From: Escherichia coli
GTDB lineage: Bacteria > Pseudomonadota > Gammaproteobacteria > Enterobacterales > Enterobacteriaceae
NCBI RefSeq assembly: GCF_003334355.1
Contig: NZ_QOWP01000004.1
Length of the DNA: 64,000 nucleotides
Strand: one strand, 5' to 3'
Both the position numbers and the translations under genes were made by a program. The stretch's first letter is position 1, and each line of letters starts with the position of its first letter. The notes below the pieces were generated by a model. It did no database searches. It worked only from the letters and a program-made list of their open reading frames with translations, and was not told the origin of the DNA. This document shows positions 7,974-28,885 of the stretch, piece by piece.

Positions 7974-9332
7974 TTAATTCACCTCAGAAATCTCTTCCAA
8001 CGACACCTTCCGCGTTTCGATGCCAAAAATGGAGAGAACCAGCGCACAGAGCAATAACATGACACCAAGCACCATAAACACCGTGATCGACCCATAATGT
8101 GTTAATAATGCCGCAACGCCATAGGGCGTGAAAACTGCGACGACCCGTCCGACGGCATTAACGAAACCCGAACCGCGCAGGCGTAAATGCGTTGGCCAAA
8201 GCTCCGGGATATAAACCGCCGACGCGAAGCAAACATACATGTATAAAAAGAAGATCATCACCAGACCATAGATTAAAATCGCCCACTCTGTAGTCTGAAT
8301 TGAATAGATATAGCCTAACACGGCAATAATAATAAGTAAGGCGGAGCCAAATAATCGACGAGGAAAATGATCAATAATTAATGCCGCAATAAATATTCCT
8401 ACCGGAGCGCCAATCATAATAACAGCGGTCATTAATATTGATTTATCGACATCAATGCCGGAGTTAACAAATATGGTCGGTATCCATACGGTGATGGTAT
8501 AAAGCGAAATGTTCATTGCAATTAAAACAGTAATCGCGACTAATGTACGTCGTAACATTTCCCCTTTAAACAGGAGCCAGAAGGTACCCTTGATTACCTT
8601 AACCTTGCTGTTGCTCTGGTTCAAAGTAAGCTGGGGTAAACGAATACTCTTCTCTCTTTCAATTTGCTGCTCTACTTCACGAAGTTGGCTTTCTGCACCG
8701 GCGATTTGCCCTTTCCCTGCCAGCCATCGTGGCGACTCAATAAAGTATTTACCTGAGAGAAGCCAGGCTAACAGTATGCCAATACCCCCCAACAGAAACA
8801 TTATCCGCCAACTAAAAAAAGCGATAACCACCACGCCTATCGCCGCAGATAGCATGGGCGACCAGTTACCAACAAATGAGAGCCGCGCGGACCATTTTCC
8901 ACGCACCGTCGCGGGGATAAACTCCGTAAATGAGGCATAGCCAACCATAATCAGCGCCCCCATTCCTGTTCCCATGAGGAAGCGAAAGAAAATGAGCCAG
9001 TACATATCAGGGACAAAAGCGGCCCCTGTTGCAGCAATTCCGACGATGAGAAGATTTATGCGAAACGCCCTGCGCCGCCCAAAGTAGTCACCAATAAACC
9101 CACCAGTAAGTGAGCCGATGAAATAACCAAACATTAATGCCGAGGTAAAGGCGGCATTGAGGAAATTATTTGACCATCCATTGCTTACCAGCTTTGCTAA
9201 GACGACATTACCTGAGTAACTCAAAAACCCCGTTAATAACAGACTAAAGCTTATTATACCAAATATACGATAATGAAACCGGGCCAAAGGCAAGCGGTCC
9301 AGTCTTGCGCCAATTTGATCATATTGTTCCAT
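7974..9332 (-). CDS. ydjE: MFS-family transporter YdjE
   Basis: ORF 7974..9437 (TTG-initiated in the track); internal ATG at 9332 gives 452 aa MEQYDQIGARLDRL; multiple predicted TM segments. Confidence 0.9.
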   Translation of the reverse strand: MEQYDQIGARLDRLPLARFHYRIFGIISFSLLLTGFLSYSGNVVLAKLVSNGWSNNFLNAAFTSALMFGYFIGSLTGGFIGDYFGRRRAFRINLLIVGIAATGAAFVPDMYWLIFFRFLMGTGMGALIMVGYASFTEFIPATVRGKWSARLSFVGNWSPMLSAAIGVVVIAFFSWRIMFLLGGIGILLAWLLSGKYFIESPRWLAGKGQIAGAESQLREVEQQIEREKSIRLPQLTLNQSNSKVKVIKGTFWLLFKGEMLRRTLVAITVLIAMNISLYTITVWIPTIFVNSGIDVDKSILMTAVIMIGAPVGIFIAALIIDHFPRRLFGSALLIIIAVLGYIYSIQTTEWAILIYGLVMIFFLYMYVCFASAVYIPELWPTHLRLRGSGFVNAVGRVVAVFTPYGVAALLTHYGSITVFMVLGVMLLLCALVLSIFGIETRKVSLEEISEVN

Positions 9333-9449
9333 TGGGTGCCTCGGATTTGCTAAAAAAGGTAGCAATTGCGGCAAATTCACTTGCCGCATCTTTATCATCA
9401 TTTTATTTCCAGGCGCAGGAACAAATAATATTGACAACGTGTGCTTAAA

Positions 9450-10208
9450 TTACCACACCAGCTGGATATTATTGTCTTTGCAAAATGCTATCCACTCTGC
9501 ACCCGGTGATTTATCAGTTATTATGTAATTAATATGACTAAAGTCAGCTAACTGGACAAAAGCTTTACGATCAAACTTAGAGTGATCAACCAATAACACA
9601 ACTTCTGTCGCCTGACGGATCATTGTCTTTTTGATTTCAGCTTCCGCTTCATTAGAGTCCAGCGCGCCGCTGTTAATATCAAGACCTTTACAACTCATTA
9701 CCATGATATCGACATGGTAGCGGCTGATGATCTCTTTAGTAATTCTTCCTTGCAGGGAAAGTGTATTTTTGTTTAGTTCCCCACCCGTTGAAACGACTTT
9801 AATTTCTGACTGAGCCAGAACATGAATCGCTTCCGCCGAGTTGGTTAGCAACGTCAGGTCACTACGGTCCTGTAACAATTTGAGCAATTCCATTACGGTA
9901 CTACTGGAATCGGCTGCCATGGTGGTTTTATTGTCGATAAAGGGTAGTGCCTTGCGTGCAATAAGCTGCTTCTCTTCATAAAACGATGAAGCGCGCTTAT
10001 AAAAATGGATATTCTCCGTCAACATCGCTGTATTTAAAACAGCACCACCATAGGTTCTGGTCAAAAAGCCTTCATCTTCCAGCTTCTCAAGATCGCGGCG
10101 AATGGTTTCTTCGGTTACCTGAAAAATCCCACTCAAATTTGAGACTGTCACCTTTTTATCGTTGGCAACCATTTGCTTAATTGCCTGAATCCTGTCTTTT
10201 GCCGCCAC
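9450..10208 (-). CDS. ydjF: DeoR-family transcriptional regulator YdjF
   Basis: 252 aa; N-terminal helix-turn-helix and C-terminal sugar-phosphate sensor typical of DeoR regulators. Confidence 0.92.
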   Translation of the reverse strand: MAAKDRIQAIKQMVANDKKVTVSNLSGIFQVTEETIRRDLEKLEDEGFLTRTYGGAVLNTAMLTENIHFYKRASSFYEEKQLIARKALPFIDNKTTMAADSSSTVMELLKLLQDRSDLTLLTNSAEAIHVLAQSEIKVVSTGGELNKNTLSLQGRITKEIISRYHVDIMVMSCKGLDINSGALDSNEAEAEIKKTMIRQATEVVLLVDHSKFDRKAFVQLADFSHINYIITDKSPGAEWIAFCKDNNIQLVW

Positions 10209-10344
10209 GATTACACCCCTGTATCTTTTTACATCACATTAGCGCGATTATCGCATAACCGATGTTTACTTTCAAAATAACCTGTTTGAATCACAGATTT
10301 TCATCACAGTTTTCACAGAAACAGAGGTGAATCGTGTTGAGTAT

Positions 10345-11325
10345 TTAACGCTCCAGGGCCTCTGCCATTTCCCTCATCAATGTTGCGTCTGCATCCGATA
10401 AGTTGATAATCAGTGCCGCGACATTTTCGCGTACCTGTTCCGGTGCAGTAGCCCCACTAAGAATGGAGATTAAATCACTCTGTTTTAATATCCACGCCAG
10501 TGCCAGAGTGGGAATTGTGCACTGATAACGAGCACAAAGTGGCTGCCACTGTTCAAGCATATCAATCACTTTCAGCATGTTTTCACGCTGGAACCAGACT
10601 TTATTTGCCCGAGCGCCGCCCGGAACGTAATCACGAGTGATGGTGCCGGTCAACAATCCCTGCTCTAGCGGGGAATAAACCTGAACCACAATGCCATTAT
10701 CACGACATAGCGGCAGCAGTTCGTTTTCCATTGCCCGGTCGAGGATACTGTATTTCGCCTGAATAATATCCAGTTCACCATATTGCAGATACTCGCGGAT
10801 ATGGTCAGCATCGACGTTAGCAGCGCCTATCGCGCGAATTTTCCCTTCGGCTTTTAACTCATTAAGCACTGCGACAGTTTCAGCTATCGGCGTAAAAAAT
10901 GGCGGCACCGACTGCCAGTGCGTCATGTAGATATCGATGTAATCAATACCCAGACGTTGCAAGCTGGCTTCTACCTCTTCGCGGATAGATTCCGGGGAAA
11001 GGTTTTTATACAACTGCCGATCGCCAACTTTGTTGAATAAACTTCCTTTTCGTTCCCAGACAATGCCGCATTTGGTTTCTACTACAACCTGTTCACGGGG
11101 CAGTTTTTTTAACGCCTGACCGACGATAACTTCACTATTGCCAAAGTTATATCCTGGCGCAGTATCAATCAGATTAATGCCACAACGATGGGCTTCAAGA
11201 ATCGTATCAATACATATTTGCCGATCGAGATCGCCATTCCATGCAGGACCGCCGCCAATGGCCCATGTCCCCAACCCCATTCGCGAAAGCGTAATATCCG
11301 TTGTGCCTAAAGGTATCTTTTTCAT
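10345..11325 (-). CDS. ydjG: Aldo-keto reductase YdjG
   Basis: 326 aa aldo-keto reductase ORF. Confidence 0.92.
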   Translation of the reverse strand: MKKIPLGTTDITLSRMGLGTWAIGGGPAWNGDLDRQICIDTILEAHRCGINLIDTAPGYNFGNSEVIVGQALKKLPREQVVVETKCGIVWERKGSLFNKVGDRQLYKNLSPESIREEVEASLQRLGIDYIDIYMTHWQSVPPFFTPIAETVAVLNELKAEGKIRAIGAANVDADHIREYLQYGELDIIQAKYSILDRAMENELLPLCRDNGIVVQVYSPLEQGLLTGTITRDYVPGGARANKVWFQRENMLKVIDMLEQWQPLCARYQCTIPTLALAWILKQSDLISILSGATAPEQVRENVAALIINLSDADATLMREMAEALER

Positions 11326-11334
11326 TTGCCTTCA

Positions 11335-25592: not shown

Positions 25593-25738
25593 AACTATCA
25601 GCCAGGTCATTATCGCCTGGCTGATTTTTAGCTTACTGTAAATTATCTCATTTATTACATACATTAGCTTACAATCGCTTTAAATATGACAGCATAACCT
25701 TTACATAATTTAGTTCCAGAAAACAATCATTCGGAAAA

Positions 25739-27214
25739 ATGATTCAGTCAACACGTATTTCCATGGGGTTATTCTTTAAATATTTTTTATCGTTAACGAA
25801 AATTGATCTTGGTCAAAACTATATATCTCTGCCATCAATAAAATCCAGCACTCACATTGCTCTCCTTTTTATGGTTTCTATGGGTACACAAAAATTAAAA
25901 GCTCAAAGCTTTTTTATTTTCAGTTTATTGCTGACGTTAATTTTATTTTGCATTACTACCTTATATAACGAAAACACAAATGTAAAACTCATCCCACAGA
26001 TGAATTACCTGATGGTTGTTGTGGCTTTGTTTTTCCTTAACGCCGTCATTTTTCTTTTCATGTTAATGAAATATTTCACTAACAAACAAATTTTACCAAC
26101 ACTCATTTTAAGCCTTGCATTTTTAAGTGGCCTTATCTATTTAGTTGAAACCATTGTAATTATCCATAAACCAATTAACGGCAGTACACTGATCCAGACA
26201 AAGTCGAATGATGTTTCTATTTTCTATATTTTCCGCCAACTCAGTTTTATTTGTTTAACCTCGCTGGCACTCTTTTGTTATGGAAAAGACAACATCCTTG
26301 ACAACAATAAGAAAAAAACGGGAATCCTGTTGCTGGCGCTGATTCCTTTTTTAGTTTTTCCCCTTCTGGCACACAATCTGAGCAGTTATAACGCTGACTA
26401 TTCTTTGTATGTCGTCGACTACTGTCCTGACAACCATACTGCGACCTGGGGAATCAACTATACAAAAATATTGGTTTGTCTGTGGGCATTTTTACTGTTC
26501 TTTATTATCATGCGTACACGATTAGCCAGCGAACTATGGCCATTAATAGCATTATTATGTCTGGCATCGCTATGCTGCAACTTACTTCTACTGACTCTGG
26601 ATGAGTATAATTACACCATCTGGTACATCAGTCGCGGGATTGAAGTCTCCAGTAAACTGTTTGTTGTGTCTTTTCTGATTTATAACATTTTTCAGGAACT
26701 GCAACTCTCCAGCAAACTGGCAGTTCATGATGTGCTGACCAATATTTATAATCGGCGCTACTTTTTCAACAGCGTAGAGTCATTATTGTCGCGACCTGTT
26801 GTTAAGGACTTCTGTGTCATGCTGGTTGATATTAATCAGTTCAAACGCATCAATGCCCAATGGGGACATCGTGTGGGTGATAAAGTGCTGGTTTCAATTG
26901 TCGATATTATCCAGCAAAGCATCCGCCCCGATGATATTTTAGCGCGACTGGAGGGTGAGGTGTTTGGCTTGCTATTTACCGAACTCAATAGTGCCCAGGC
27001 AAAAATCATTGCGGAACGTATGCGTAAAAATGTCGAACTCCTGACCGGCTTTAGTAACAGATATGATGTTCCTGAACAAATGACCATCAGTATTGGCACG
27101 GTTTTTTCAACGGGTGACACGCGTAATATCTCGCTTGTCATGACGGAAGCAGATAAAGCCTTACGCGAAGCGAAAAGCGAGGGGGGCAACAAAGTGATTA
27201 TTCATCATATTTAA
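25739..27214 (+). CDS. dgcI: GGDEF-domain membrane protein with degenerate active-site motif (EGEVF)
   Basis: 491 aa; N-terminal multi-TM domain; C-terminal GGDEF fold with DVLTNIYNRRYF but RLEGEVFGLLF in place of GGDEF. Confidence 0.9.
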   Translation: MIQSTRISMGLFFKYFLSLTKIDLGQNYISLPSIKSSTHIALLFMVSMGTQKLKAQSFFIFSLLLTLILFCITTLYNENTNVKLIPQMNYLMVVVALFFLNAVIFLFMLMKYFTNKQILPTLILSLAFLSGLIYLVETIVIIHKPINGSTLIQTKSNDVSIFYIFRQLSFICLTSLALFCYGKDNILDNNKKKTGILLLALIPFLVFPLLAHNLSSYNADYSLYVVDYCPDNHTATWGINYTKILVCLWAFLLFFIIMRTRLASELWPLIALLCLASLCCNLLLLTLDEYNYTIWYISRGIEVSSKLFVVSFLIYNIFQELQLSSKLAVHDVLTNIYNRRYFFNSVESLLSRPVVKDFCVMLVDINQFKRINAQWGHRVGDKVLVSIVDIIQQSIRPDDILARLEGEVFGLLFTELNSAQAKIIAERMRKNVELLTGFSNRYDVPEQMTISIGTVFSTGDTRNISLVMTEADKALREAKSEGGNKVIIHHI

Positions 27215-27394: not shown

Positions 27395-28885
27395 ATGAAA
27401 TTGCACCATAGAATGCTCCGGCATTTTATCGCCGCAAGTGTCATTGTGCTGACATCTTCCTTCCTTATTTTTGAACTTGTCGCCAGCGACAGAGCAATGA
27501 GTGCCTATCTGCGCTATATCGTGCAGAAAGCAGACTCCTCCTTTCTTTATGATAAGTATCAGAATCAGAGTATTGCCGCGCATGTGATGCGCGCTCTCGC
27601 TGCTGAGCAGTCGGAAGTGTCGCCAGAACAGCGGCGCGCCATCTGCGAGGCTTTTGAGTCTGCCAATAATACCCATGGCTTAAACCTGACTGCCCATAAA
27701 TAACCGGGCTTACGCGGCACACTACAAACCGCATCCACTGACTGCGACACAATTGTGGAAGCTGCAGCACTATTACCCGCTTTTGATCAGGCAGTGGAAG
27801 GCAACCGCCACCAGGATGATTACGGTTCAGGTCTTGGGATGGCCGAAGAGAAATTTCACTATTATCTCGATCTCAATGACCGCTATGTCTATTTTTATGA
27901 GCCGGTTAATGTTGAATACTTTGCGATGAATAACTGGTCCTTCCTGCAGTCAGGAAGTATTGGCATCGATCGCAAAGATATTGAAAAGGTATTTACCGGG
28001 CGTACCGTATTGTCGAGCATTTACCAGGATCAGCGTACTAAACAGAACGTGATGAGTTTGCTGACGCCGGTATATGTCGCAGGGCAGCTAAAAGGGATTG
28101 TGCTGCTGGATATTAACAAAAACAATTTGCGGAATATCTTTTACACTCATGACCGCCCTCTCCTCTGGCGTTTTCTCAATGTCACGCTAACCGATACCGA
28201 TTCGGGGCGCGACATTATCATCAACCAGAGCGAAGATAATCTGTTCCAGTATGTCAGTTACGTCCATGACTTACCGGGCGGCATTCGTGTCTCGTTATCC
28301 ATTGATATTCTTTACTTTATCACGTCTTCGTGGAAAAGCGTTCTGTTCTGGATTTTGACGGCGTTAATTTTGCTGAATATGGTGCGGATGCACTTCCGTT
28401 TATACCAAAATGTGTCGCGAGAAAATATTAGTGATGCGATGACTGGACTGTATAATCGCAAAATTTTAACCCCTGAACTGGAGCAGCGGTTGCAGAAACT
28501 GGTGCAAGCCGGTTCTTCGGTGATGTTTATTGCAATTGACATGGACAAGTTAAAGCAAATAAATGACACCCTCGGTCATCAGGAGGGGGATTTAGCGATT
28601 ACGTTATTAGCTCAGGCGATTAAACAATCGATTCGTAAAAGTGATTATGCCATCCGACTCGGTGGCGATGAATTCTGCATCATTCTTGTCGATTCGACGC
28701 CGCAAATTGCAGCACAACTGCCTGAACGTATCGAAAAACGTCTGCAACATATCGCGCCGCAGAAAGAGATTGGCTTCTCTTCCGGTATTTACGCGATGAA
28801 AGAAAACGATACGTTACATGATGCGTATAAAGCTTCCGATGAGCGTTTATATGTCAATAAGCAGAACAAAAACAGCCGTTCATGA
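27395..28885 (+). pseudogene. dgcJ: Diguanylate cyclase yeaJ/dgcJ interrupted by an in-frame TAA at 27701..27703
   Basis: ORFs 27215..27703 and 27755..28885 share one frame separated only by the TAA; ATG 27395 (RBS aaggag) to 28885 is 497 codons, matching the 496 aa K-12 protein with one stop; intact GGDEF (RLGGDEF) lies downstream. Confidence 0.8.

What the first reader, a model, noticed from the sequence alone, without database searches (positions are those of the whole stretch)
26900..27000. dgcI carries a degenerate GGDEF motif (EGEVF)
The C-terminal domain of the 491 aa product keeps the GGDEF fold (DVLTNIYNRRYF, DINQFKRINAQWGH) but the catalytic signature reads ARLEGEVFGLLF. Loss of the Gly-Gly/Asp-Glu core predicts a non-catalytic, possibly receptor-type domain. 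The gene is also markedly AT-rich compared with its neighbours.
Basis: partly seen in the sequence, partly recalled or inferred. Interest (0 to 1): 0.35.

Follow-up and report, generated by a model that had tools for sequence, protein, structure and literature searches.

The report
Known degenerate GGDEF protein CdgI (YeaI)
The gene is E. coli cdgI (yeaI), not dgcI: a membrane protein whose cyclase motif is known to have decayed to EGEVF while its c-di-GMP-binding site survives, so the finding is real but already in the literature.

Summary
The sequence facts hold. ORF 25739-27214 (+) encodes 491 aa with a MASE4 membrane domain and a full-length GGDEF domain. The active-site motif reads EGEVF (nt 26951-26965). 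The gene is the most AT-rich of 48 ORFs in the window.

The gene label is wrong. RefSeq calls it cdgI (old name yeaI); dgcI is yliF. The degenerate A-site, the intact RxxD I-site and c-di-GMP binding by purified CdgI are published (Sarenko 2017). This is therefore already known.

What I add:
- A third catalytic lesion: the phosphate-binding Arg of the GRN motif is Gly483.
- The I-site residues R396/D399 sit exactly 5 residues upstream of the A-site.
- The gene is a positional orthologue (yeaH-X-dgcJ) of a canonical GGEEF/GRN protein in three Citrobacter species.
- In Escherichia the A-site drifts (EGEVF, EGEEF, DGEVF, EGDVF, EGNVF, EGKRF), yet the domain stays under purifying selection (dN/dS about 0.07-0.10).
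- AT-richness is ancestral. About two thirds of it comes from amino-acid composition. It is unrelated to the motif loss.

Side findings: the first 44-47 annotated codons look non-coding, and the neighbouring dgcJ carries a nonsense codon seen in none of 5,396 complete E. coli genomes.

The parts
25739..27214 (+). cdgI (yeaI) ORF as annotated in RefSeq, 491 aa plus stop
   Evidence: 100% identical to cdgI of strain 214-4 (WP_000616417.1). At least 80% of the gene is present in 5409 of 5426 complete E. coli genomes.
25871..25882 (+). Probable true start region: ATG for M45 at 25871 and ATG for M48 at 25880
   Evidence: Orthologues outside E. coli start here, giving 445-448 aa. The ATG at 25880 is invariant across six aligned orthologue upstream regions. 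Codons 1-47 carry 0 synonymous and 6 nonsynonymous polymorphisms, against 29 and 4 in the rest (Fisher p=6e-5). O157:H7 has ATT at codon 1. AF2 pLDDT is below 50 for residues 1-50.
26000..26695 (+). MASE4 integral-membrane sensor domain (aa 88-319)
   Evidence: Pfam PF17158, E=1.5e-48. AF2 gives a bundle of long helices. GC of aa 1-320, which contains MASE4, is 35.1%.
26720..27193 (+). GGDEF domain (aa 328-485); fold retained, A-site degenerate
   Evidence: Pfam PF00990, E=1.3e-44, full model length. TIGR00254 is above its cut-off. Foldseek target-normalised TM is 0.82-0.88 to isolated GGDEF domains.
26924..26935 (+). I-site RxxD = R396-P-D-D399, five residues upstream of the A-site
   Evidence: R396 and D399 are invariant in 19 MASE4-GGDEF homologues. 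c-di-GMP binding by purified CdgI is reported in PMC5635695. One exception is HPDD in Escherichia sp. MOD1-EC7003.
26951..26965 (+). Degenerate A-site E405-G-E-V-F409, in place of GG[D/E]EF
   Evidence: The peptide RPDDILARLEGEVF is identical in K-12, O157:H7, 16843, N47 and LF82. The 66-nt segment around it is 100% identical in 3545 of 5412 genomes, and the only variant I read (LF82, one mismatch) is synonymous.
27185..27187 (+). Gly483 at the position of the phosphate-binding Arg of the GRN motif (PleD R446)
   Evidence: The alignment shows GGN in every degenerate-clade member and GRN in every canonical homologue, and against the active cyclase 6zxm. The role of PleD R446 is taken from PMC7288161.
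26828..26881 (+). Retained substrate-site residues: D364 (PleD D327, metal), N372 (PleD N335) and D381 (PleD D344, guanine). K479 (PleD K442) lies at 27173-27175.
   Evidence: Invariant in all 19 aligned homologues. Residue roles are from PMC7288161. The mapping is by motif alignment.
25597..25634 (+). Terminator-like hairpin plus T-run after yeaH; it separates cdgI from the yeaGH unit
   Evidence: 11-bp stem. The hairpin is conserved in orthologous loci.
25700..25727 (+). Promoter-like site TTTACA-16-AACAAT just upstream of the annotated ATG
   Evidence: Consensus scan only; the region has no more such sites than shuffles. TTTACA and ACAAT are conserved in the upstream alignment. Binding of RstA and SrsR to this intergenic region is reported (PMC6824119; PMC9181523).

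Best explanation
This is cdgI (yeaI) of E. coli. It encodes an inner-membrane protein with an N-terminal MASE4 sensor domain and a C-terminal GGDEF domain. The domain has lost the chemistry of a diguanylate cyclase but keeps the allosteric c-di-GMP-binding I-site.

Most likely mechanism: CdgI does not make c-di-GMP. It binds c-di-GMP at R396/D399, probably with R427, and acts as a c-di-GMP-responsive receptor or regulator. The most plausible route is heteromeric GGDEF-GGDEF contacts with other GGDEF proteins, under the control of the MASE4 domain.

Shown here or in the literature:
- the domain architecture
- the A-site lesions G->E405, E->V408 and R->G483
- the intact I-site
- purifying selection on the domain
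- c-di-GMP binding, and strong two-hybrid contacts with other GGDEF domains (literature)

Inferred:
- the complete lack of catalysis
- that the heteromeric contacts are the output
- that c-di-GMP modulates those contacts

Evolution: the gene is the positional orthologue of a canonical-looking GGEEF cyclase still found in some Citrobacter species. Catalysis was abandoned before the Escherichia species diverged.
For: Identity:
- 100% identity to RefSeq cdgI, with yeaG-yeaH-cdgI-dgcJ-yeaK synteny.

Architecture:
- MASE4 plus GGDEF by Pfam.
- GGDEF fold in the model.

Lesions:
- EGEVF.
- GGN instead of GRN, which removes the PleD R446 equivalent.

Relaxed constraint confined to catalytic positions:
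- The A-site reads EGEVF, EGEEF, DGEVF, EGDVF, EGNVF or EGKRF in the Escherichia-side clade.
- It reads GGEEF in syntenic Citrobacter orthologues and in all more distant MASE4 homologues.

Continued function:
- dN/dS of the GGDEF part is 0.07-0.10 for E. coli against E. albertii and a cryptic clade. The GGEEF-bearing pair gives a similar 0.11.
- At least 80% of the gene is present in 5409 of 5426 complete genomes.

I-site:
- RPDD with 5-residue spacing. R396 and D399 are invariant in 19 homologues.

Literature:
- Purified CdgI binds c-di-GMP. GGDEF(CdgI) makes multiple strong heteromeric contacts. The protein is not expressed under standard conditions and is toxic when overexpressed (PMC5635695).
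- It is called 'catalytically non-functional' (PMC10459773).
- The yeaI biofilm defect in M9-glycerol is not rescued by the cyclase WspR (PMC3484386).
Against: - Papers citing Sanchez-Torres 2011 state that yeaI raises cellular c-di-GMP in BW25113 and list it among 'verified' cyclases (PMC3484386; PMC6824119). I could not read the primary paper.
- In CFT073 the yeaI biofilm defect in no-salt LB was rescued by WspR. That fits a c-di-GMP-supplying role, although it also fits a c-di-GMP-dependent receptor.
- The metal-, guanine- and phosphate-binding residues D364, N372, D381 and K479 remain invariant. Nucleotide binding at the A-site is therefore not excluded.
- One close relative (Escherichia sp. 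MOD1-EC7003) has HPDD instead of RPDD, so I-site binding is not indispensable in every lineage.
- The output pathway is unknown, and the two-hybrid contacts were measured with overexpressed domains.
Confidence: 0.8

Rival explanations
1. CdgI is still a weak or conditional diguanylate cyclase. The EGEVF site retains enough chemistry, with E407 as metal ligand, to make c-di-GMP when the MASE4 domain is activated.
For: - Citing papers say yeaI raises c-di-GMP in BW25113 and call it a verified DGC.
- WspR rescues the CFT073 yeaI biofilm defect in no-salt LB.
- D364, N372, D381, E407 and K479 are retained.
- RefSeq still names the product 'sensor domain-containing diguanylate cyclase'.
Against: - Three lesions hit catalytic positions together: G->E at motif position 1, E->V at position 4, and loss of the phosphate-binding Arg (G483).
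- Motif positions 1, 3 and 4 vary among orthologues, including N, K and R. That is not what a conserved active site does.
- WspR does not rescue in M9-glycerol.
- The specialist literature classes it as inactive.
- The in vivo c-di-GMP effects can be indirect, through binding or buffering or through partner cyclases.
Confidence: 0.08
2. The degenerate A-site has become a GTP (or other nucleotide) sensor, as in the GGDEF domain of Caulobacter PdeA. In this reading CdgI reports both GTP and c-di-GMP to its partners.
For: - The guanine-binding N372/D381, the metal ligand D364 and the phosphate ligand K479 are invariant even in the degenerate clade.
- Review PMC7288161 notes degenerate GGDEF domains that act as GTP-binding sensors.
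Against: - The degenerate clade is shallow (64-99% identity), so invariance carries limited weight.
- The phosphate-binding Arg is lost, and an acidic residue sits at motif position 1 next to the phosphates.
- I found no nucleotide-binding data at the A-site in the papers read.
- CdgI has no attached enzymatic domain to regulate.
Confidence: 0.08
3. cdgI is a silent, decaying remnant (functional pseudogene) or a recently acquired AT-rich foreign gene kept off by xenogeneic silencing. The motif loss would then be simple decay.
For: - Lowest GC of 48 ORFs, and the most negative synonymous GC deviation in the window.
- No expression under standard laboratory conditions.
- Deleted in S. flexneri 2457T.
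- Occasional IS1 disruption.
- dN is 5-10 times that of yeaH and about 2-9 times that of dgcJ in the comparisons with E. albertii and the cryptic-clade strain.
Against: - dN/dS is 0.07-0.10, not near 1.
- At least 80% of the gene is present in 5409 of 5426 genomes.
- The gene has the same syntenic position and the same low GC (35.6-39.3%) in E. albertii, E. whittamii, cryptic clades and three Citrobacter species. It is therefore old and vertically kept.
- About two thirds of the GC deficit follows from the amino-acid composition of the membrane domain.
- Deletion phenotypes and regulators (RstA, SrsR) are reported.
Confidence: 0.03

Closest known systems
CdgI / YeaI of E. coli K-12 (b1785)
   Same: It is the same gene. 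It differs from a K-12-derived strain at 13 nucleotides (99.1% identity) and 2 amino acids, and the I-site/A-site peptide RPDDILARLEGEVF is identical. The neighbours are the same: yeaG, yeaH, dgcJ, yeaK.
   Different: Nothing relevant. This strain has L24 where K-12 has P24, in the doubtful N-terminal extension.
DgcT (YcdT) and DgcX, the active MASE4-GGDEF cyclases of E. coli
   Same: They share the MASE4 plus GGDEF architecture and are the closest E. coli paralogues according to PMC5635695 and PMC10459773. Homologues at 38-46% identity align over the full length.
   Different: All those homologues carry GGEEF and GRN. CdgI has EGEVF and GGN.
Syntenic MASE4-GGDEF protein of Citrobacter sp. R56, Awk 4 and NCU1
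   Same: It is the positional orthologue between yeaH and dgcJ (synteny shown for the Awk 4-type protein and a related metagenomic contig; the R56 and NCU1 flanks were not examined). Identity is 57-63%, and the AT-richness is similar at 37-38% GC.
   Different: It keeps GGEEF, GRN and ALYEAK, so it looks like an active cyclase. Its activity was not tested.
Degenerate GGDEF c-di-GMP receptors that use the I-site (for example PelD of P. aeruginosa and PopA of C. crescentus)
   Same: The logic is the same: the GGDEF fold is kept, the A-site is lost, RxxD is kept, and c-di-GMP is bound as a ligand. The knowledge of these receptors is my own recollection and was not tested here.
   Different: The N-terminal modules and the outputs differ. 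No direct homology beyond the GGDEF domain was examined, and CdgI's output is unknown.
   Same: It is also a membrane GGDEF protein of E. coli.
   Different: It is a different gene at a different locus, with an intact GGDEF motif (table in PMC3484386; naming in PMC5635695).

Membership tests
GGDEF domain family (Pfam PF00990 / TIGR00254) | Profile match above the curated threshold over the whole domain | tested here: met
   PF00990 E=1.3e-44, model positions 1-161 of 161. TIGR00254 scores 123.1 bits against a cut-off of 37.4.
GGDEF domain family (Pfam PF00990 / TIGR00254) | GGDEF alpha/beta fold | tested here: met
   AF2 block-mean pLDDT is mostly 83-94 for aa 330-491. Foldseek to isolated GGDEF domains (5euh, 3ign, 4wxw, 4zvg) gives TMt 0.82-0.88 and rmsd 2.1-3.2 A.
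Active diguanylate cyclases (EC 2.7.7.65) | A-site motif GG[D/E]EF | tested here: not met
   EGEVF at aa 405-409. Positions 1 and 4 are substituted.
Active diguanylate cyclases (EC 2.7.7.65) | Phosphate-binding Lys and Arg (PleD K442, R446) | tested here: not met
   K479 is present, but the Arg position is Gly483, giving GGN instead of GRN. Residue roles are from PMC7288161.
Active diguanylate cyclases (EC 2.7.7.65) | Metal-binding Asp and guanine-binding Asn/Asp (PleD D327, N335, D344) | tested here: met
   D364, N372 and D381 are invariant in the alignment.
Active diguanylate cyclases (EC 2.7.7.65) | Synthesis of c-di-GMP from GTP | not testable with these tools
   Only indirect in vivo claims are cited. 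The primary paper is not held.
I-site (RxxD) c-di-GMP-binding GGDEF domains | RxxD exactly five residues upstream of the A-site motif | tested here: met
   R396-P-D-D399, then ILARL, then EGEVF. R396 and D399 are invariant in 19 homologues.
I-site (RxxD) c-di-GMP-binding GGDEF domains | Additional Arg contributing to the site (PleD R390) | tested here: inconclusive
   R427 in AERMR aligns by motif with PleD AERIR. The PleD numbering is from my own knowledge. R427 is conserved in the degenerate clade but is K in some GGEEF homologues.
I-site (RxxD) c-di-GMP-binding GGDEF domains | Physical binding of c-di-GMP | not testable with these tools
   Reported for purified CdgI in PMC5635695, Fig. S4B.
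MASE4 membrane sensor domain (PF17158) | Profile match | tested here: met
   E=1.5e-48, aa 88-319, model positions 5-237 of 239.
CdgI/YeaI orthologous group | Sequence identity to annotated cdgI, and position between yeaH and dgcJ | tested here: met
   100% nucleotide identity to cdgI of strain 214-4, with the same gene order.
   RefSeq names this gene cdgI in all listed full-length hits. dgcI is the former yliF.

The most novel reading that the evidence does not exclude
CdgI is a c-di-GMP-gated 'poison subunit'. When the MASE4 domain and the I-site are occupied, its catalytically dead GGDEF domain heterodimerises with specific active cyclases, possibly the adjacent DgcJ. This blocks or redirects their output and gives local feedback control. 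The remnant A-site may still bind GTP. The Escherichia lineage would then have converted an ancestral cyclase, still GGEEF in some Citrobacter, into a regulator of cyclases.
Probability: 0.25. Interest if true: 0.45.

Novelty: already known. Interest (0 to 1): 0.12.

Why it matters
The finding itself matters little. The degenerate EGEVF motif, the intact I-site and c-di-GMP binding of YeaI/CdgI are established, and they are the reason the protein was renamed CdgI rather than Dgc-something.

The analysis has three practical uses:
- It corrects the gene label. It also shows that the automatic RefSeq product name ('sensor domain-containing diguanylate cyclase') and several papers still overstate the enzymatic role.
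- It gives a clean natural experiment. A syntenic GGEEF orthologue in Citrobacter can be compared with drifting A-sites in Escherichia, to ask how a cyclase becomes a receptor.
- It suggests the annotated start codon is about 44-47 codons too far upstream. That would affect expression constructs and promoter studies of cdgI.

Tried and rejected
Papers that are not held:
- Sanchez-Torres 2011 (PMC3158426), the Hengge 2015 nomenclature paper (PMC4686207) and Povolotsky & Hengge 2015 (PMC4686209).
- The claim that YeaI raises c-di-GMP therefore rests on citing papers only.

Searches that gave little:
- A full-text search for 'EGEVF' inside words returned only unrelated hits among the 15 listed.
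- One paper reading failed on a five-word term. One script failed on file naming.
- NCBIfam has no CdgI-specific model. Only the generic GGDEF domain passes its cut-off.

Ideas rejected:
- Recent horizontal transfer as the cause of the AT-richness. The orthologues in E. albertii, E. whittamii, cryptic clades and Citrobacter sit in the same place with the same 35.6-39.3% GC. Most of the deficit follows from amino-acid composition.
- Pseudogene decay, because dN/dS is 0.07-0.10.

Limits of what was done:
- dS is saturated for comparisons beyond about 77% identity (nan). Only the closer pairs were used.
- The genome-contig scan used two restrictive peptide patterns. Absence from other genera, such as Salmonella or E. 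fergusonii, is suggestive and not proven.
- The taxa of metagenomic orthologues L004 (77% identity) and L006 (64%) were not identified.

Full report
**1. The observation**

The ORF at 25739-27214 (+) encodes 491 aa. All three quoted peptides are present. The motif EGEVF occupies aa 405-409, nt 26951-26965, inside the stated coordinates.

Pfam finds two domains:
- MASE4 at aa 88-319, E=1.5e-48.
- A complete GGDEF domain at aa 328-485, E=1.3e-44, covering the full model length.

In NCBIfam only the generic GGDEF domain model passes its cut-off. An AlphaFold2 model built on 19 homologues has block-mean pLDDT mostly 83-94 in the GGDEF part. It superposes on isolated GGDEF crystal structures with target-normalised TM-scores of 0.82-0.88. 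The statement 'fold kept, signature changed' is therefore correct.

The gene is also the most AT-rich of 48 long ORFs in the window: 38.3% GC against a mean of 50.3% (sd 3.7).

**2. Identity**

The window is E. coli. The gene is 100% identical to cdgI of strain 214-4, and at least 80% of it is present in 5409 of 5426 complete E. coli genomes. In all listed full-length hits it is annotated cdgI. The neighbours are yeaG, yeaH, dgcJ and yeaK.

dgcI is the former yliF and cdgI is the former yeaI (PMC5635695). yliF has an intact GGDEF motif (table in PMC3484386).

**3. What is already published**

Sarenko et al. 2017 report the following:
- The purified protein binds c-di-GMP.
- Its GGDEF domain makes several strong heteromeric contacts with other GGDEF domains.
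- It is not expressed under standard conditions.
- It is toxic when overexpressed.

PMC10459773 calls it catalytically non-functional.

Other papers count it as an active cyclase, citing Sanchez-Torres 2011 for raised c-di-GMP in vivo. I could not read that primary paper. In CFT073 the yeaI biofilm defect is rescued by the cyclase WspR in one medium but not in another. Binding of RstA and SrsR to the upstream region is reported.

The finding is thus already known. What remains open is the absence, in what I could read, of an in vitro cyclase assay.

**4. Anatomy beyond the motif**

The I-site RPDD (R396, D399; nt 26924-26935) lies exactly five residues upstream of EGEVF. Both residues are invariant in 19 MASE4-GGDEF homologues.

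I mapped residues onto PleD, taking the roles from review PMC7288161. Retained:
- the metal ligand D364 (PleD D327)
- the guanine binders N372 and D381 (PleD N335 and D344)
- the phosphate-binding K479 (PleD K442)

Lost:
- the phosphate-binding Arg (PleD R446), which is Gly483. The sequence reads GGN instead of GRN.

This lesion is visible against the active cyclase 6zxm. It is present in every member of the degenerate clade and in none of the canonical homologues. Three catalytic positions are therefore hit: motif position 1 (G to E), motif position 4 (E to V), and the Arg.

**5. Evolution**

Related proteins sit in the same place, between yeaH and dgcJ, in the following:

| Source | A-site |
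|---|---|
| E. albertii | EGNVF |
| Cryptic-clade strain | EGEEF |
| E. whittamii | EGEVF |
| Escherichia sp. E1V33 | EGEVF |
| 'E. coli' E69 | DGEVF |
| SCPM-O-B-8794 | EGDVF |
| Metagenomic contig, 77% identity | EGEVF |
| Metagenomic contig, 64% identity | EGKRF |

Synteny was read directly for E. albertii, the cryptic-clade strain and the two metagenomic contigs. The flanks of the genome-scan loci were not examined.

Citrobacter sp. Awk 4 has a syntenic orthologue (57% identity) that reads GGEEF and GRN, as does a related metagenomic contig at 62%. Citrobacter sp. R56 and NCU1 carry the same GGEEF/GRN protein at 59-63% identity, but I did not check their flanks. All more distant MASE4 homologues are also canonical.

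The loss therefore predates the divergence of the Escherichia species. Since then the A-site positions 1, 3 and 4 have drifted, while G406 and F409 and the I-site have stayed.

The domain is nevertheless constrained:
- dN/dS of the GGDEF part is 0.07-0.10 for E. coli against E. albertii and the cryptic clade.
- The GGEEF-bearing pair gives about the same, 0.11.
- The protein still evolves 5-10 times faster than YeaH.

Within E. coli the peptide RPDDILARLEGEVF is identical in K-12, O157:H7, two divergent clinical strains and LF82. The LF82 variant, the only non-identical one I read, is synonymous.

One exception to I-site conservation is HPDD in Escherichia sp. MOD1-EC7003.

**6. AT-richness**

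GC expected from the amino-acid composition alone, using the window's codon usage, is 42.7% against a window mean of 50.8%. About two thirds of the deficit therefore comes from the Ile/Leu/Phe/Asn/Lys-rich membrane domain. The remaining -4.4 points is synonymous and is the most negative value in the window.

All orthologues, including the GGEEF ones, have 35.6-39.3% GC. Two paralogous MASE4-GGDEF genes also lie below their flanks.

The AT-richness is thus an old trait of the gene. It is not a sign of recent transfer, and it is unrelated to the degenerate motif.

**7. Mechanism and rivals**

Best supported (confidence 0.8): a non-catalytic, c-di-GMP-binding membrane receptor or regulator. Its output probably runs through heteromeric GGDEF contacts.

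Rivals:
- Residual cyclase activity (0.08). The three lesions and the drifting A-site argue against it.
- GTP sensing at the remnant A-site (0.08). This is not exclusive of the main explanation.
- Decay or a foreign silent gene (0.03). dN/dS, synteny and prevalence argue against it.

**8. Side observations**

- **Annotated start codon.** The first 47 annotated codons carry 0 synonymous and 6 nonsynonymous polymorphisms, against 29 and 4 in the rest (p=6e-5). O157:H7 has ATT at codon 1. Orthologues start at M45 or M48, and the ATG at 25880 is invariant. The model is disordered for residues 1-50. The true protein is therefore probably 444-447 aa.
- **Nonsense codon in dgcJ.** dgcJ (27395-28885) has TAA at codon 103 (27701-27703), where strain 214-4 has TAC. 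None of 5,396 complete genomes is identical over the 61 nt around it.

**9. Verdict**

The finding is already known and of low interest.

Noticed in passing
window 27395-28885 (+), stop at 27701-27703: The neighbouring cyclase gene dgcJ has an in-frame TAA at codon 103, where strain 214-4 has TAC (Tyr). It splits the 496-aa protein into a 102-aa N-terminal piece and a possible restart at 27755 that still contains GGDEF. None of 5,396 complete E. coli genomes is identical over the 61 nt around it. It is either a strain-private nonsense mutation or a sequence error. Shigella DGC genes with similar early stops are reported to still make c-di-GMP from internal starts (PMC11327459).
   Followed up: partly
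window 25739-25879: The first 44-47 codons of the annotated 491-aa cdgI ORF do not behave like coding sequence. They carry 0 synonymous and 6 nonsynonymous polymorphisms, against 29 and 4 in the rest (p=6e-5). O157:H7 has ATT at codon 1. Orthologues start at M45 or M48. AF2 pLDDT is below 50 for residues 1-50. The real start is probably at 25871 or 25880.
   Followed up: partly
window about 25800-25850 (annotated codons 22-35) and 25700-25738: Several sequence blocks are conserved across Escherichia and partly in Citrobacter-like upstream regions: ATTGATC..GTCAAAA, CATCAATAAAATC, TTTACA, and ACAATCATTCGGAAAAA. They may be promoter, operator or 5' UTR elements. RstA and SrsR are reported to bind this intergenic region.
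   Followed up: no
L016 2501-3841 (Escherichia sp. MOD1-EC7003): A 98%-identical orthologue has HPDD instead of RPDD at the I-site, and ALCEAK instead of ALREAK. It is a natural I-site variant.
   Followed up: no
L015 325-2577 (E. coli strain ET791): An IS1 element is inserted in cdgI just after the A-site region, splitting the gene into two annotated pseudogene fragments. Published K-12 sublines carry an IS1 in dgcJ, and a spontaneous cdgI-dgcJ' deletion has been reported (PMC8117528). The locus seems prone to IS1 events.
   Followed up: no
window 25739-27214 compared with L008 and L002: In the comparison with the cryptic-clade strain (L008), synonymous divergence of cdgI (dS 0.86) is about twice that of the flanking yeaH and dgcJ (0.45-0.48). 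Against E. albertii (L002) the values are similar (0.99 against 0.78 and 1.11). Possible causes are recombination, a higher mutation rate in AT-rich DNA, or weak codon selection.
   Followed up: no
L028 3001-4332: A 38%-identical MASE4-GGDEF paralogue (GGEEF) from an E. coli assembly has only 29% GC and lies next to phage tail-fibre genes. This is consistent with the published prophage-borne DgcX.
   Followed up: no
window 7974-14187 (-): A run of six minus-strand ORFs has GC of 42-48%, with synonymous GC 2.6-4.3 points below the expectation from their amino-acid composition. After cdgI this is the second most deviant stretch of the window.
   Followed up: no
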